Shown: positions 18,001 to 24,000, counted from the stretch's first letter. The stretch is 64,000 nucleotides of DNA from Vulcanimicrobiota bacterium (GCA_963714015.1 OY970223.1:64001-128000), one strand, 5' to 3'. Made by a program: the numbers.

Positions 18001-21000
18001 GACCTTTCGTTTGCCGTCAGCAAGACGCTGGTCTACCGATCATCACCTCGCTCGCCGTCGGCGCCTTCGTTCTTATTGCTCGAAGTGTGCGTCGCCTTGG
18101 GCTTCGGGATTTGGCTGAACGCGATGCATAACGGCATCGATCACTTCGTCGACCGCGTACTGTTCCGCCGGCGGCATCTCGCCGAGGTCACGATCGAAAC
18201 GTGCGATGCGCTGGATCTTTCGTCGGCTGCAGTATTCCGCAAAGACGGCGAACGCACTTCAAGCGATTTACTTCACTTGGATGGATTCGCAGCACGCAGT
18301 GGCAACCGCCGGTGAGAACCTTCGTGGTTCGACATGAAGTCGAGGGCTTTTTGCTTTAGGGCGCGCACAACGGCGGCCAAGCCGTCGACCCGGACGAGCA
18401 GCGAGTGCTCGAATGTTTGACGCAAGCCGCTGTCCCGACCGTACGAATATCTGCGCGCGAAAGCATTCCAGGGCGATGCACGCGCACTACGCGCCGAAAT
18501 GCCACAGCACCGCTAGACACGTTCTGATGTAGCGCGACCGACAGATGGTGCAGGATTTGCTTTGGTGCGGTCGAGCGATACGAGCGCACGCGAGAGACTG
18601 GATAAGAAGGGCCGGCCAAAAACGGCCGAGCCTTCAAAAAGCCCCGTGTTGCCAGATAGTTTTGGGTGTCTTGCGCCTCTATCTTGACATTTATAGAATT
18701 ACGAGGTCCTAGAACGGCGTTCTCTCACCTTTTAGGAGAATTTCACTCTAACTAGCCGTTTTTGCACGCATTTCACCCTAACTGCGTTTTTTTCACGTTG
18801 CCAGTCAAGAAAATAGGGCTCCCGAACCCGCCACGTCGAAAACCCTTAAATGCGGCCAAGGCATATCGCTGCCGTTTTCTGCGCGGCCATTGCGCTGATT
18901 TTTGTCCTCGCCATAGGGGCGAGTCTTCCCCAGGCGAGCGCCGGTATAAGACTGGGGATTTCACAGCGGGTCGCGCCCGATCATTTCCGCATTTCCCAGC
19001 TTCCACGGGGTAGCACCTCGGGCGCACGAGTAGGCGACGTTCTCGATACGCGGGCGCTCACCGTCGAACAGCGTTCGCGCTATTGGAACGGAGAATCGCG
19101 CGCCGGTGCGACGGTTGCGGTCACGCTGTTCCGCAACGGTAAGCCCGTGACCGTGTACGCCACGGTGCCGGCGCGGGATCCGCAGACGCAGGTCGCAGAC
19201 GACATCTGGTTTGGACTGTTGTGTTTCGGGGTCGTCGCAGGCTTGCTGCTGATGTCCCGCGGCCGCGGCAAGGCGTCGTTCACCGCAGGCCTGATGCTGC
19301 TCACGCTCGGCATAACATTAGCGCCGATCGGTGCATGGATTACGCCGGTTTGGCTAAGCGTCGCGCTATTTGAACTGGAGTCTGGTGCCAACCGGCGTTT
19401 GCGGTTTGCGCGTTCGTACTCGGCATGTTGCTATTGCGCGAGAGCGTCTCGCGTCCTGTTCGGGCATTGCTCATTATTGCGGCGTCTATTGCGATCGGGA
19501 GCGAAACCTTCGTCTGGTCTTTCGACTACGGCCTGTGGATGTTCACCGGCCACACCGAAGGCGGTCAACTGGTTTATCCGTACGCGGCCACTGCGTGGAT
19601 ATCGGTGACCATTCTGACGTTTGCGTTAGCGGCGGCTCGAACGCGAGGAAGTGATGCGGCAGCAGTCCGTACGCTCTTCGTCGCCACACTCATCGGGCTG
19701 GGCGCTATTGCTTGTACGTATTTGGCCGAGTTCCATTTGGTGCCCACGCCGCCGCGGCTGGTGTCGGCCGTATGTCAGCTCGTACTGTTCGTCGGCTACT
19801 TTTATGCCTTTTTTGCGCGCCGCCTGGTTGCACTGGATTTTGTGATCAGCCGCGCGGCGGTGTTTACCATTCTCGCGGGTGTCATTGCCGGCGTACTCGC
19901 CCTTGTTGAGAAATTCGTCGAATCATTCGCGCTCGGGCGTGAATCGATTTTCGTGGTCGAACTCGGTGCGACACTGCTGGTGGCGCTGTCGTTCCGGTGG
20001 CTGGAACGCCGCATCAGCGTCGCCGTGGAGCAGGTGTTTTACCGCGACAAATTGAGGGCCGCCGAGGCGCTGGGCGCTTTGACCGACGATTTCCCCTTTC
20101 ATCGCGATCGGACCGCGCTGGCCAATCATCTCGTCCGCGAAGTACTCCGCCAGCTGCGCGTACCTTCAGCGGTTTTGTATTTCGCGAAAGGGCACGAATA
20201 CGTCGCTGAAGGCGCTGCGGGCGCCGACCTCTTATCCTGCCCGCCCGTTGCGGATACCGATCCCGCTATTCTTCGTTTGCGATCCAAGCATAGCCCGATA
20301 GACTGCCATGATTTTCAAACACAATTGGGATCGAGCGGGTACGCGTTTCCACTCGACGTGTTGGGGCGTGCAATCGGCTGTCTATACGTTGCAGCGCGCG
20401 CAAATGGAGAAGGGCTAGATCCGGACGAACGCACATTGCTTACGCGCCTTGCGCATGAAGCCGCAACGGCATTACTTTGGATGACGGAGCACAAAACAGC
20501 CGCAGCAGATGAGGCTTACAGCACTTAGAGCACGCAGCGAAGAAAAGCCCTCGGTTATTGCGGGCTTTTCAATTTCGCGCAAGATGAGAACGCTAAAACG
20601 CCAGAACGTCAGAATGGCGTTGTCTCACGTTTTAAGCGAATTTCTCCGTAACTAGCGATTTTTGCACGCATTTAACCCAACTCAACGGTGAAGTGCCTCT
20701 GACCACATAACCGGTTAATGGAGTTTCTCGGTTAGTAGCGCGGTTCCAGGAACGCGGCGTGCGCGCGGCCTACGCCTAGGGGTGGAATTAGGCCGTGCGT
20801 CTAAGATATTACGTTGCCATGAAGACCGAGTCGCCTTCAATCGGCACTTGGAAACGATGCCTCGTAGCATGCGTTGTAATCGGTCTTGCCGCCGTGCTCG
20901 CGTCCGCCTACATTCAACGCGTGCCATTCCCCGATCTCGGTTTTGACCTGCGCGTCGACGCAGCATCACGGAATGTTTTTGTTTCTTCCGTTGACCGGGC

Positions 21001-24000
21001 CACCCCGGCCTGGCGTGCTGGCTTGCGTCCCGGCGACGCGCTTGCCGTTAAAGACTTGGATATATCGCAACGCATAATTTTGTCAGGCCCGACACAGCCG
21101 TCCGTAGATCCTTTGCGTGTTGACCTGCCGGTTTTACGCAGCGGCAGTACGCACAGAATTTCGTTCGCCGCCCGTGCCGACGCGGCTACATTAGAGACGC
21201 TGTTCGCCAATTACTTCGTCCTCATCGGCGACCTGCTAATGTTAGCCGTTGCGCTCCTCATCGGCACGCGCAAACCGGAAAACCGCGACGTACGGGATAT
21301 CTGTCTCGTGCTGCTGACCTACGCAGTCGGAAACGGTTTGTACAACCTGAGCCTTAACTGGGCTCCGCTTCTGATTCTGATGAACATCGCGAATTTGGGT
21401 CCGATTCTCTCTGCGGTTTTATTTGGTCTCTTCGCGATGCGTTTCGTCACCAACGTTAAGGCACGCACGCTTGCGACAGGCATCGGCAGCGCGATTTTCC
21501 TTGCGGCCAGCGTGTTGACAGTGCTCTTCCTGATGGGAGCAGCGACGGCCCGTCCCGATCCGTTCTGGCTCTCGCGATGGCCGTGGACGTCTTACTTATT
21601 CGCAGAAAGCTCTCACTATTTCTTTGCACGTCTCTTCGCGCTGATCTGCGGCATTTACGCGATCGCCGCCTCTCGCGGGGCGCAGCGGCAACGTATCGTT
21701 TGGGCGACGGCCGCGGTAGCAGTCCTGTATGGAACAGCGGTGATCGTCCAACCTCTTGTTCGGCTTGGCGTTATACCCGTGTCATTTGACGAACCGATCG
21801 TCGACGTCGGCGTCTTTCTTTTCCCAATCGGGCTTGCGTACGCGGTGCTGAAACGACGAATACTTGACATCGGATTCGTCATCAACCGCGCCGCGGTGTT
21901 TTCCGGCGTGTCGATCATCGTCGTGGGCATCTTCGTACTGGTGGAGTGGCTGCTATCGGAATGGTTCGGAAGCCTGAGCCACACGGCAAATCTGGCTATA
22001 GGCGCTGCTTTGGCACTCTTCTTAGGTTTTTCGGTGCGAGCGATTCACCAACACGTGGACCGCACTCTCGACGCGGTCTTTTTCCGAAAGCGGCATGAAG
22101 ACGAGAAAGCCATCCGAACGTTTGCGCATGAGGCCTCGTACATAACGGACCTTGGAACGCTCATCGCGCGCGCGAAGCAGACGCTCGAAGCTCATGCCGA
22201 CGCCGCGTTCGCCAACCTAGCGTTAGACGACGGCCTTGGGCTTTACGGCGACGTGAGCGAAAACGATCCCGCGATCGTCGCCTTGCAAGCATGGCGCCAG
22301 GTGCTCGATCTTCATACCGTGCAAACCCGGTTGCAAGGCGAATTCGCCTATCCGATGATCGCACGTGGCCGTCTAGTGGGTGCGCTTATCGTCGGGCCGA
22401 AGCGCACCGGTGAGTCGTACGCGCCAGATGAATCCGACGCGATCGCGCAGCTTGCACACGGGGTCGGTGGCGCGCTGGACATCCTGACGCTCAATGCGGG
22501 CGTTTCGTTAGAAACCTTGTCCGAACAACTGCGCGACTTTCGCGATACCATGGTGGCCGAGCTTCGCGCAATGCGTGCTCCGCTGTAAAAAAAGCGCAGT
22601 CGAAGAGTCGCCGCGCTTTTAATTCGAAACGCTAGAGCGTTAGAACGTCAAAACGCTAAAACGTCAGAACGCTAAAACGGTCAAAACGGCGTTATCTCAC
22701 CTTTTAGGCGTCCGGCACTTCGTGTCCGCCTGATCGAAGCATTGTGTGGCGCGACTGCGTAAAAAAGCCCTGCAAATGCGGGGCTTTTTGGTCTTAATCT
22801 TTTGGATCTTCACTAGAACATTAGAACCTAAAACGTCAAAATGCTAGAACGCTAGAACGTCGTTGTCTCACCTCTTACGGGAATTTCACCCTAACTAGCG
22901 CTTTTTGCATAAATTTCGTCCTAACTGCGCGCGAGGCCGGTTGGTCCTGCGCCATGCGGGATGCTGGCACGAATGAAAGGTCCATTGTCGGCGCGTGTGC
23001 TTGTGGTACGCCGGCCAGCCGCCGGGAGCGTCGATGCACCGCGGATTGTTCGGCGTCGTCGGATACGTGCGCGTTTTGGCACCCGGAAAGTCGTTTATCT
23101 TGGGAACAAACACTCGGTTTATACGCGTCAGTGGAATGGCACCGAAAAGTTCCTAAACGCTTCGGATTGAAAACGAAAAGTGCACGTTTGAATGTGAACG
23201 TGTTCGCGCCTCAAACCCTGCCTGCGAGTAACTCATCCAGCTGCGCGAACTGTTCGGGCAGGCCTTCCGCCGAACCGGCGAGGGCTTCGTCGAGGGCCGC
23301 TTCTGTGGGGTAAAGTTCGTGTAGAATGACCAGCGTCTTGCCGGCATTTTCTTCGAACGTCACAGTGGTCACGGCGCCCTGATCGCTTTCTTCGTTCGTC
23401 CAGACGAGACGCTTGTTCGGCGTCACTTCTCGGTACGTGCCGAAGAACGCCATCGGTTGATCGAAGGCCGGATGGCGGAACACGAGGCGATACGCGCCCC
23501 CGGTGCGCACATCCATGTCGCACGAGACCAGCGACATGCCTGCCGACTTCGGAACCCACCAAATCTTGAACAATTCGGATTTGCTCCACGCTTCGAAGAC
23601 GATGTGCGCCCGGGCATTGAACGTTCGCGTCACGACGAGTTCGCGGTCGGACTTGCGTTCCACCACTGTGCGGTTGATGGTGGCGGGACTAGTTTCTTTT
23701 GCTTCAGGCATCTGACTTCTCCTTACATTTCAAGTGCTCGACAATCTTGTCCAGCGCGTCGAAGCGTGCGCTCCAGAGCTGGCGGTGCCGCTCGATCCAG
23801 GCGGCCTCTTCTTCCAGCGCGCGCATGCCAAGTCTGCAGGTTCTGACGCGCCCGGTCTTTTCAGTAGTGACGAGCGCTGCCCGCTCCAGCACGGCAACAT
23901 GCTTCTTCATGCCCGTGAGGGTCATCCGGAACTTTCCGGCGAGGTCCGTAATCGAGGCGTCGGAGTGGGCGAAGCTGCTCCAGCACGCCGCGCCGAGTCG

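What a model noticed while it worked through the whole genome (the two positions that open the first line are those of the whole stretch)
20819..22588. Twenty-member family of PDZ - 7TM - GAF membrane proteins without any catalytic output domain
The largest family of unannotated paralogues in this genome (22 gene calls, about 20 genes; e.g. g00086, g00155, g00347, g02888, g03354, five of them within 68-91 kb) shares one architecture: N-terminal TM helix, periplasmic PDZ-like domain, a seven-helix membrane bundle, a long signalling helix and a cytoplasmic GAF domain followed by a coiled coil, and nothing else. I read them as a new class of bacterial seven-transmembrane receptors that sense periplasmic peptide/protein C-termini through the PDZ domain and signal through the GAF domain (by binding a nucleotide second messenger or a partner protein) rather than through a kinase, cyclase or phosphatase. 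New: an orphan receptor family that [...]
Evidence so far: All-vs-all BLASTP of the 1271 proteins without Pfam/Swiss-Prot rows: largest cluster 25; phmmer with g00086 against the proteome: 22 hits, E 0 to 2.7e-6, lengths mostly 470-620; neighbours differ at every locus, no conserved partner gene. Pfam below cut-off only: PDZ_6/PDZ_2 at about 40-77 (E 3e-4 to 0.03) and GAF/GAF_2 at about 430-570 (E 2e-5 to 4e-3) in 4 of 4 members tested. 355 homologues (E<=1e-5, of 8000 candidates scored) in public data, the best 120 all 'hypothetical' or unnamed but one (RsbU label), mostly 37-48% identical over >85% of the length, most without any precomputed Pfam domain. AlphaFold2 (32-sequence alignment A4): mean pLDDT 85.5, pTM 0.66; H8-33, beta domain 42-118, h [...]
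(Added by a program. Inside this text positions count along the whole contig: contig position 64,001 is position 1 of the stretch shown here. "Call 12" and the like, gene names such as g00115 and contig names such as C1 are that model's own, and its searches are not shown. The text may have been shortened before it was handed on; [...] marks where a part breaks off. The agent that wrote the report below was given it as the finding of a first reader that could run no searches.)

Follow-up and report, generated by a model that had tools for sequence, protein, structure and literature searches.

The report
Output-less PDZ–7TM–GAF membrane sensor family
This gene is one of about twenty copies of a membrane protein built like the sensing half of a bacterial signalling kinase but with the kinase missing, so how it passes a signal on is an open question.

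Summary
Window 20819-22588 (+) encodes a 589-aa protein, one of about 20 paralogous loci in this 3.56-Mb genome; six loci plus a fragment lie in the window. The confident AlphaFold model gives ten membrane helices, not eight. The order is: anchor helix, periplasmic PDZ (family profile vs DegP PDZ1, E 7e-8), GPCR-like seven-helix bundle, conserved two-helix hairpin, linker helix, GAF (Z 15.1), variable tail helix.

It is not an isolated new receptor class. The region from the bundle to the GAF aligns collinearly with the sensor half of a HisKA_7TM-GAF histidine kinase from the same phylum (hhalign 91%). Three paralogues weakly match the sensor half of the PrsK model. The hairpin-GAF unit is portable: it also heads a STAND-NTPase-TPR protein in this genome (hhalign 99.8%). 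One full-length relative carries a C-terminal nucleotide cyclase.

Almost all members have no output domain and no conserved neighbour. The bundle's outer halves vary and its inner halves are conserved.

My reading is a diversified, output-less sensor that signals in trans (confidence 0.55). Ligand and partner are unknown. It is a new variant of a known kind, largely confined to one Eremiobacterota class.

The parts
20819..22588 (+). Target gene, 589 aa (P0001), stop codon included
20840..20917 (+). N-terminal membrane helix TM0 (aa 8-33); signal anchor, N-terminus inside
   Evidence: Hydropathy and positive-inside count. Model helix 8-33 with block pLDDT 94-96. An Ala-x-Ala site at aa 27-29 means cleavage as a signal peptide cannot be excluded (read from the sequence).
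20924..21184 (+). Periplasmic PDZ domain of the HtrA / site-2-protease type (aa 36-122)
   Evidence: Family profile vs PDB: DegP PDZ1 E 7.4e-8, profile 36-122 vs chain 278-364; also DegQ and S2P/RseP PDZs. Pfam PDZ_6 is sub-threshold.
21188..21853 (+). Seven-helix membrane bundle (aa 124-345), N-terminus outside, GPCR-like arrangement
   Evidence: Models. VIA-align: Z 12.1-15.7, about 191-263 aa aligned, rmsd mostly 4-5 A, 50 of 50 top rows GPCR or GPCR-like. Outer halves conserved 0.37 vs inner halves 0.61.
21854..22081 (+). Conserved two-helix membrane hairpin TM8/TM9 (aa 346-421), first part of the portable hairpin-GAF module
   Evidence: Model helices 346-385 and 388-421. Among the most conserved blocks, 0.68-0.80. 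Homologous to the N-terminus of a STAND protein.
22085..22141 (+). Juxtamembrane linker helix (aa 423-441) with the FFRKRHEDE motif
22151..22498 (+). Cytoplasmic GAF domain (aa 445-560)
   Evidence: VIA-align Z 15.1, rmsd 2.9 A over 138 aa to the PtsP GAF 3trc, with many other GAFs below it. Pfam GAF_2 in 46 of 46 at E<=1.
22508..22576 (+). Poorly conserved C-terminal helix (aa 564-586)
4831..6351 (+). Paralogue, 506 aa, no PDZ detected
14163..16028 (-). Paralogue, 621 aa; weak match to the sensor half of the PrsK model (E 2.1e-6)
16302..17816 (+). Paralogue, 504 aa, no PDZ; PrsK model positions 9-455 of 679, E 9e-12; orthologues 73-89% identical elsewhere
17872..18312 (+). Fragment of a hairpin-GAF module
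18850..20528 (+). Paralogue split over two frames (18850-19608 and 19425-20528); frameshift near 19372-19416
25771..27506 (-). Paralogue split over two frames (25771-27300 and 27084-27506)

Best explanation
The gene encodes a transmembrane sensor that lacks an output domain. It belongs to an old, diversified paralogue family.

Proposed input: the periplasmic protease-type PDZ domain and the variable outer half of a GPCR-like seven-helix bundle.

Proposed transmitter: the conserved inner half of the bundle, a conserved two-helix hairpin, a juxtamembrane helix and a cytoplasmic GAF domain. In relatives this same unit sits directly upstream of a histidine kinase or a nucleotide cyclase. The hairpin-GAF part alone also heads a STAND NTPase.

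Here nothing follows the GAF. The signal must therefore leave in trans, by a ligand-dependent change in how the GAF and tail helix contact a separately encoded protein or an output-bearing relative.

Shown: the architecture, the topology by the positive-inside rule, homology of the module, the fusions, the conservation pattern, the lack of a linked partner gene.

Inferred: direction of signalling, dimerisation, trans output, nature of the ligands.
For: - Architecture from a confident model (pLDDT 87.6; membrane part alone 88.4).
- PDZ: profile E 7.4e-8 to DegP PDZ1.
- GAF: Z 15.1.
- Bundle: 50 of 50 best structural matches are GPCR or GPCR-like, Z up to 15.7.
- All five K/R-rich loops fall on the GAF side.
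- Sensor-module homology: hhalign of the family alignment vs a HisKA_7TM-GAF-HisKA-HATPase kinase of the same phylum gives 91.3%, E 9.4e-7, over 390 collinear columns (aa 132-553 vs 13-467).
- PrsK model: sensor-half matches for three paralogues, at E 9e-12 and 2.1e-6 in protein scans and 8.7e-4 in the genome scan.
- Fusions that place the unit upstream of effectors: P0221, full architecture plus class III cyclase, with one full-length match in 151 genomes; hairpin-GAF plus STAND plus TPR in this genome and in 9 more of 151.
- In all seven bundle helices the periplasmic half is less conserved than the cytoplasmic half (0.37 vs 0.61; Mann-Whitney p 2e-12, residues not independent). The hairpin-linker-GAF is the most conserved part.
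- The copies are old and retained. Five of the 16 paralogues that could be compared have outside orthologues at 56-89% identity against at most 52% for their closest G000 paralogue (at most 39% for four of the five).
- Precedent: the LytS-type kinase BtsS is a 7TM-GAF receptor that binds pyruvate in its membrane domain (PMC10653868, passages read).
Against: - No partner is known. No neighbour recurs in 92 loci.
- No ligand is known.
- The similarity of the seven-helix part to Pfam HisKA_7TM is weak. None of 46 members match at E<=1. One of 77 matches at E<=0.01, and that one was added because it had hit (26.4 bits, cut-off 28.6). hhalign of the family against six HisKA_7TM domains gives only 8.8%.
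- So the 91% match to the kinase rests mostly on the hairpin-GAF part and on a single kinase sequence.
- Z values of 12-16 are in the range that helical bundles can reach without kinship (note).
- Seven of 20 loci in this genome are split, so some copies may be dead.
- The PDZ carboxylate-binding loop is only partly conserved.
Confidence: 0.55

Rival explanations
1. Inside-out device. The GAF domain is the input: it binds a cytoplasmic small molecule such as a cyclic nucleotide. The membrane bundle and PDZ are the output, for instance gating a pore or holding or releasing a periplasmic protein. This would resemble cyclase plus membrane effector pairs such as Pycsar.
For: - GAF domains commonly bind cyclic nucleotides. 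The structural matches include PDE2/5/6 GAFs and a cAMP-bound Lcd1 GAF.
- The genome has 7 cyclase-STAND-TPR genes.
- Three of the 20 family loci have such a gene within 6 kb of flank. Five of 14 STAND loci lie within 10 kb of a family locus against 1.4 expected (p about 0.01 under uniform placement).
Against: - The linkage is not conserved. None of 72 loci from other genomes has a cyclase within about 6 kb, and 2 of 72 have a STAND gene.
- PADLOC gave no match for 4 of 4 family members.
- The variable part is the outer face, which fits input rather than output.
- In the fusions the unit precedes the effector domain.
Confidence: 0.15
2. Adaptor or hub model. The hairpin-GAF unit is a homotypic docking module. 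Many output-less receptors dock through it onto the few relatives that carry the same unit plus an effector (STAND NTPase, cyclase, kinase). This would parallel the effector-associated domains of bacterial conflict systems.
For: - The same unit is shared at 99.8% hhalign probability between the receptors and a STAND-TPR protein.
- In paralogous STAND proteins that N-terminal position holds effector domains: cyclase in 7, HTH in 3.
- The STAND-linked units form one clade, as deep as the family's main branches (98/96 support).
- The concept of homotypic adaptor domains is described in PMC7159879 (passages read).
Against: - The STAND form was found in only 10 of 151 sampled genomes, while the receptor family is in 71 of 151.
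- The cyclase form was found full-length in 1 of 151.
- So most genomes with the family lack a known hub. No binding test could be run.
Confidence: 0.1
3. Decayed receptors. These are remnants of kinase- or cyclase-coupled sensors that lost their output. They are now inert, or act only as dominant-negative partners of intact relatives.
For: - A poorly conserved tail helix follows the GAF where relatives have the helix leading into the effector.
- Seven of 20 loci in this genome are split.
Against: - More than 1000 cluster representatives keep the same length and architecture.
- Motifs in the hairpin, linker and GAF are strongly conserved.
- Orthologues are retained across genomes.
- The genome's completeness estimate (89.6%) is lower than most relatives' (93-100% for same-family genomes), and split STAND genes suggest that many splits are assembly indels.
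Confidence: 0.08
4. The membrane domain is an enzyme, an intramembrane protease or a transporter, regulated by PDZ and GAF. This would follow the pattern of site-2 proteases, which combine PDZ or CBS domains with a membrane core.
For: - The PDZ type is that of HtrA and site-2 proteases.
- The layout of PDZ outside, membrane core, and nucleotide-type regulatory domain inside recalls RseP and SpoIVFB (recalled, not tested).
Against: - No HExxH or other catalytic motif occurs in the sequence (read).
- The invariant residues of the membrane part lie in cytoplasmic loops and the hairpin, not in a buried polar cluster.
- No transporter or protease fold appears among the best 50 structural matches.
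Confidence: 0.05

Closest known systems
HisKA_7TM-type sensor histidine kinases with a GAF domain (Pfam PF16927; example P0292 from genome G004 of the same phylum)
   Same: Seven-helix bundle with N-terminus outside, then a two-helix hairpin, a juxtamembrane helix with a shared basic motif (FFRKRHEDE here, LFLRREYRK in the kinase) and a GAF domain. Collinear over 390 columns, hhalign 91.3%.
   Different: No HisKA or HATPase domains. An extra N-terminal anchor helix and PDZ domain. The seven-helix part is too diverged for the Pfam model (0 of 46 members).
PrsK, the XrtA/PEP-CTERM system histidine kinase (NCBIfam TIGR02916)
   Same: Three paralogues match the membrane-plus-GAF part of the model: positions 9-455 at E 9e-12, 54-463 at E 2.1e-6, and 202-462 at E 8.7e-4 in the genome scan.
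   Different: Scores of 18-44 bits against a cut-off of 300. No kinase half. No exosortase found in the genome. No PrsK above cut-off in 151 genomes of the phylum. None of 46 members of the target's own subfamily match.
LytS/BtsS-type kinases (5TMR_LYT + GAF + kinase)
   Same: A seven-helix membrane receptor joined directly to a cytoplasmic GAF domain. In BtsS the ligand binds at the periplasmic side of the membrane domain (PMC10653868, passages read).
   Different: No match to 5TMR_LYT at E<=1 in 46 members. No kinase. An extra PDZ and hairpin.
PDZ domains of HtrA proteases (DegP, DegQ, DegS) and site-2 proteases (RseP)
   Same: Significant profile match over the whole domain (E 7.4e-8). Periplasmic location.
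   Different: Not attached to a protease. The carboxylate-binding Gly-hydrophobic loop is only partly conserved.
Eukaryotic GPCR fold, including the GPCR-like domain of LYCHOS/GPR155
   Same: Same arrangement of seven helices (Z 12.1-15.7, rmsd mostly 4-5 A over about 191-263 residues). N-terminal extracellular domain. Variable outer half and conserved inner half.
   Different: 3-14% identity and no sequence signal. Z is in the range that helical bundles can reach by arrangement alone. No evidence of common descent or of G-protein coupling.

Membership tests
Pfam HisKA_7TM (PF16927) | Match to the model at or above the gathering score of 28.6 bits | tested here: not met
   P0001 and 45 homologues: no match at E<=1. 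One family member from genome G144 reaches 26.4 bits by hmmscan, or 29.9 bits in the genome scan, over model positions 3-222 of 224. One G000 paralogue reaches 13.4 bits. hhalign of the family against six true members gives 8.8%.
Pfam HisKA_7TM (PF16927) | Seven membrane helices at the N-terminus of a signalling protein, followed by cytoplasmic signalling domains | tested here: met
   Seven-helix bundle at 124-345 followed by hairpin and GAF. Collinear with a true HisKA_7TM kinase.
Sensor histidine kinase (any) | HisKA/DHp and HATPase_c domains | tested here: not met
   No such Pfam match in P0001, in the paralogues scanned, or in 46+77 homologues. The protein ends 29 residues after the GAF.
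PrsK (TIGR02916) | Score of 300 bits or more; kinase half; PEP-CTERM/exosortase context | tested here: not met
   Best score 44.4 bits, sensor half only. Exosortase_EpsH not found in the genome, which is 89.6% complete.
LytS family (5TMR_LYT, PF07694) | Match to 5TMR_LYT | tested here: not met
   Not among the families matched by any of 46 members at E<=1.
PDZ domain | Sequence profile match over the whole domain; beta-sandwich with two helices | tested here: met
   E 7.4e-8 to DegP PDZ1 over 87 residues. Model has four long strands and two helices at 42-120. Pfam scores stay below the cut-offs.
PDZ domain | Carboxylate-binding x-hydrophobic-Gly-hydrophobic loop | tested here: inconclusive
   P0001 has Leu-Gly-Phe at 40-42. 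A Gly-hydrophobic pair recurs in most but not all of the 24 rows inspected.
GAF domain | GAF fold and profile match | tested here: met
   Z 15.1 with rmsd 2.9 A over 138 aa, and many other GAF structures among the best 50 rows. GAF_2 in 46 of 46 at E<=1; best single scores are 1.1e-9 (GAF) and 6e-7 (GAF_2) among 77 further members.
Cyclic-nucleotide-binding GAF | Ligand-contacting residues of cNMP-binding GAFs | not tested
   No reference sequences were at hand. The structural matches do not separate cNMP-binding GAFs from others.
GPCR-like 7TM fold | Helix arrangement superposable on GPCRs | tested here: met
   50 of 50 best rows are GPCR or GPCR-like, Z 12.1-15.7. This is fold level only; descent is not shown.
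Known anti-phage defence proteins (PADLOC) | Match to any PADLOC model | tested here: not met
   None of 4 family members match at E<=0.01.

The most novel reading that the evidence does not exclude
The conserved hairpin-GAF unit is a membrane-embedded homotypic docking module. Batteries of output-less PDZ-7TM receptors would use it to plug into a few proteins that carry the same unit fused to an effector (STAND NTPase-TPR, cyclase, kinase). That would be a many-receptors-to-few-hubs network, comparable in logic to death-fold adaptors in eukaryotic STAND signalling.
Probability: 0.1. Interest if true: 0.8.

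Novelty: new variant of a known kind. Interest (0 to 1): 0.5.

Why it matters
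- The family is large: 1068 cluster representatives at E<=1e-30.
- Every name a source gives its members is 'hypothetical protein' or a probable mislabel.
- No Pfam family matched its membrane part consistently.
- In this genome its roughly 20 loci outnumber the roughly 12 matches to a histidine-kinase catalytic half.
- It is therefore probably a major sensory repertoire of a widespread, largely uncultured group of soil bacteria, and it works without any recognisable output domain.
- The rare cyclase-fused and kinase-fused relatives offer natural read-outs for finding ligands by domain swapping.
- The portable hairpin-GAF unit deserves a family definition of its own.

Tried and rejected
- **Fused forms longer than 1031 aa:** none found, which is weak evidence.
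- **Homologue search with the PrsK-like paralogue:** 33 hits, none with a kinase domain on record.
- **True PrsK in 151 genomes of the phylum:** none, and the controls did not ring either, so I could not build a PrsK profile.
- **Foldseek against PDB:** nothing at E<=0.001.
- **Profile comparison of the family (alignment A2) with six HisKA_7TM domains:** 8.8%, only the first helix aligned.
- **Neighbour clustering:** the two clusters found in 68-71 loci are overlapping frames of the gene itself. The largest other clusters occur in at most 11 of 92 loci and were not followed up.
- **Cyclase-STAND adjacency:** seen in this genome but not in other genomes.
- **Obligate STAND hub:** rejected by co-occurrence, 10 against 71 of 151 genomes.
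- **PADLOC:** no match.
- **Earlier notes of this scan:** nothing.
- **Sequencing runs:** no RNA holder listed. Contigs of two runs leave the frameshift site at 19349-19470 uncovered, so I cannot tell whether the split copy is an assembly error.
- **Complex prediction:** The heterodimer with the STAND module was not tried.
- **Literature searches that found nothing on this architecture:**
  - PrsK + GAF + transmembrane: 0 papers.
  - Eremiobacterota / paralog / GAF, at least two of the three terms: 10 of 2441 listed, none relevant.
  - GAF domain + PDZ domain + transmembrane + bacterial + sensor: 8 papers; from titles and abstract starts none describes this architecture.
  - 7TMR-DISM + GAF: 4 papers.
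  - Eremiobacterota + GAF: 1 paper, unrelated.
  - HisKA_7TM: 2 papers.
  - Eremiobacterota + PDZ: 0 papers.
  - Subscription journals are not covered by these searches.

Full report
**1. What is at the coordinates**

Frame +1 of 20795-22588 is open for 597 codons from a GTG. The window has about 57-65% G+C throughout.

The next ORFs downstream are a 119-aa ORF that I judge spurious and an AHSA1-family gene on the other strand. No separate output gene follows.

**2. The paralogue family is real**

The window lies in a single 3,562,638-base contig.

- phmmer with P0001 against all six-frame ORFs of 80 aa or more gave 24 ORF hits at E<=1e-3.
- A profile of the longer hits gave 32 ORF pieces. I merge these into about 20 loci plus two fragments.
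- Seven of the 20 loci are split over two frames. Four of 14 STAND-NTPase loci are split too.
- The genome's completeness estimate (89.6%) is lower than most of its relatives' (93-100% for same-family genomes).
- Many splits may therefore be assembly indels. Contigs of two public runs did not cover the one frameshift I examined.

Six loci and one fragment lie between 68.8 and 91.5 kb of the contig.

The copies are old. Pairwise identity among 16 of them is 16-22% in the anchor helix, PDZ, first six membrane helices and tail. It is 27-34% in the last three helices, the linker and the GAF. Five of the 16 paralogues that could be compared have outside orthologues at 56-89% identity, against at most 52% for their closest G000 paralogue and at most 39% for four of the five. 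The outside set came from only two searches.

**3. Anatomy**

The AlphaFold2 model built with 46 sequences is confident (pLDDT 87.6, pTM 0.72). It shows, in order:

| Residues | Element |
|---|---|
| 8-33 | helix (anchor) |
| 42-120 | small beta-rich domain |
| 122-345 | seven helices |
| 346-385, 388-421 | two long helices |
| 423-441 | linker helix |
| 445-560 | alpha/beta domain |
| 564-586 | last helix |

Hydropathy and charge counts put the K/R-rich loops (151-159, 212-220, 286-292, 345-357, and 411 onward) on one side. This gives N-terminus inside, beta domain outside, and the C-terminal domain inside. The protein therefore has 1+7+2 membrane helices.

*PDZ.* The beta domain is a PDZ domain of the bacterial protease type.
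- Single sequences stay below Pfam's cut-offs: PDZ_6 in 26 of 46 at E<=1.
- The family profile matches PDZ1 of DegP at E 7.4e-8 over 87 residues. DegQ and site-2-protease PDZs follow.

*GAF.* The C-terminal domain is a GAF domain. VIA-align gives Z 15.1, rmsd 2.9 A over 138 residues to a PtsP GAF, with many other GAFs below it. Pfam GAF_2 matches 46 of 46 at E<=1.

*Seven-helix bundle.* I modelled the membrane part alone (pLDDT 88.4).
- All 50 of its best structural matches are GPCRs or GPCR-like folds. Z is 12.1-15.7, with about 191-263 residues aligned, rmsd mostly 4-5 A and identity 3-14%.
- The tool warns that helical bundles can reach such Z values without kinship. I take this as a shared arrangement only.
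- Foldseek found nothing at E<=0.001.

**4. Conservation pattern**

- Along 46 homologues the most conserved stretch is 341-560 (block means 0.62-0.86). The PDZ and most of the bundle are lower, at 0.29-0.66.
- In each of the seven bundle helices the periplasmic half is less conserved than the cytoplasmic half. Overall the values are 0.37 and 0.61.
- That is the pattern of a receptor with a diversified outer pocket and a common inner face.
- The invariant residues of the membrane part lie in cytoplasmic loops and in the hairpin.
- There is no HExxH or similar catalytic motif (read).

**5. Relatives, and what they are fused to**

(a) The hairpin, linker and GAF form a portable unit.
- A 941-aa protein of this genome (contig 336957-339779, minus strand) starts with this unit. 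It continues with a STAND NTPase and TPR repeats.
- An alignment of its first 235 residues with 12 orthologues matches the family alignment at 99.8% probability (E 9.6e-29, 199 columns, P0001 357-557).
- Thirteen other STAND-TPR loci of the genome hold a class III cyclase (7), an HTH (3) or nothing recognised (3) in that N-terminal position.
- On a tree of the unit, the STAND-linked copies form one clade (98/96). It branches as deep as the main lineages of the family. The kinase sits on a very long branch there.

(b) A kinase of another family of the same phylum (P0292) has HisKA_7TM, a hairpin, GAF, HisKA and HATPase.
- The family alignment aligns to it collinearly from helix 1 of the bundle to the end of the GAF: 91.3%, E 9.4e-7, 390 columns.
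- Three paralogues match the sensor half of the PrsK model, at E 9e-12 and 2.1e-6 in protein scans and 8.7e-4 in the genome scan. All are far below the cut-off.

(c) One of the 150 best representatives, P0221 (887 aa), has the full architecture followed by a coiled coil and a class III cyclase. A full-length match was found in 1 of 151 genomes.

(d) The link of the seven-helix part to Pfam HisKA_7TM is weak.
- One member from genome G144 scores 26.4 bits against a cut-off of 28.6, over the whole model.
- None of 46 members match at E<=1, and no other of 77 at E<=0.01.
- A profile comparison with six true domains fails at 8.8%.
- The ESM Atlas lead that pointed to this family scored only 0.84-0.87.

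**6. Distribution**

- Of 72 loci kept from reference genomes, most carry titles naming Eremiobacterota/Vulcanimicrobiota: Baltobacteraceae, Cybelea, Tumulicola, Vulcanimicrobiaceae. Six are labelled Acidiferrales or Verrucomicrobiia and three carry no phylum name.
- In an even sample of 151 genomes of the phylum the family is in 71. That is 62 of 71 genomes of the window's own family, 8 of 9 of a second family of the same class, G000 itself, and none of the 70 genomes of other families. The f3 count includes the unpublished genome G128.
- Several copies per genome are usual. Only 8 candidates per genome were scored. One genome has seven copies in tandem.
- The ESM Atlas also lists PDZ+GAF clusters whose commonest phylum is Acidobacteriota.
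- Source names are 'hypothetical protein' throughout, apart from one RsbU label and one ArfA label, which I take to be mislabels.

**7. Context**

- No gene recurs next to the family in 92 loci.
- In this genome 5 of 14 STAND loci lie within 10 kb of a family locus, against 1.4 expected.
- In other genomes only 2 of 72 loci have a STAND gene, and none a cyclase, within about 6 kb.
- The hairpin-GAF-STAND form occurs in 10 of 151 genomes, against 71 of 151 for the family. It cannot be the general partner.
- PADLOC models do not match.
- No exosortase is found in the genome.

**8. Reading**

The unit from the bundle to the GAF is a sensor-transmitter module of the kind that precedes kinases. BtsS is a studied example of 7TM plus GAF with the ligand bound in the membrane domain (PMC10653868, passages read). 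HisKA_7TM is listed as a sensor domain of kinases in PMC5847659 (passages read).

This family adds an anchor helix and a protease-type PDZ in front and has lost, or never had, an effector behind. The same paper notes that output-less signalling architectures are thought to act through protein contacts.

I therefore read these proteins as diversified sensors that signal in trans (0.55). The rivals are:
- inside-out control by a GAF ligand (0.15);
- a docking-adaptor network (0.10);
- decayed receptors (0.08);
- an enzyme or transporter (0.05).

**9. Novelty**

This is not a categorically new receptor class. It is a large, unnamed, output-less variant of a known kind of sensor module, with a new domain combination (PDZ in front) and a portable hairpin-GAF unit. 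The literature searches listed under Tried and rejected turned up no description of either.

Noticed in passing
window 1-1976 (+), continuing upstream to contig position 63172: A 934-aa frame with class III adenylate/guanylate cyclase, then NB-ARC/STAND NTPase, then TPR. It is one of 14 STAND-TPR loci in the genome: 7 with a cyclase, 3 with an HTH, 1 with hairpin-GAF, 3 with no recognised N-terminal domain. The same family gives up to 78 first-look candidates per genome in relatives.
   Followed up: partly
genome contig 336957-339779 (-), outside the window (L088:998-3823): A 941-aa protein made of a two-helix hairpin, GAF, STAND NTPase and TPR. Thirteen copies in all, including this one, occur in 10 of 151 sampled genomes. 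Its function is unknown.
   Followed up: partly
whole genome; e.g. window 18850-20528 and 25771-27506: Seven of 20 family loci and four of 14 STAND loci are split over two frames. Completeness is 89.6% against 93-100% for same-family genomes. Either the assembly carries many indel errors or these variable families hold many pseudogenes.
   Followed up: partly
genome contig 2702252-2704606 (+) (L089:1025-3358): This paralogue runs on in frame for about 170 residues past the GAF, into a segment with a Cys-x-x-Cys motif and no Pfam match at E<=0.01. It may be a downstream small gene joined by a lost stop.
   Followed up: no
G079:C2:2499558-2514310: Seven family genes lie head to tail in one related genome.
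   Followed up: no
window 2843-3463 (-), 8221-8793 (+), 8841-10028 (-), 29807-33196 (+), 34030-36189 (-): Ordinary neighbours: two TetR regulators, a multicopper oxidase, an AcrB-type pump and a RelA/SpoT homologue.
   Followed up: no
window 36749-37651 (+), 37653-38528 (+), 28849-29493 (+), 24538-25122 (+), 6367-7068 (+), 2208-2846 (-): Six ORFs of 194-300 aa have no Pfam match at E<=0.001.
   Followed up: no
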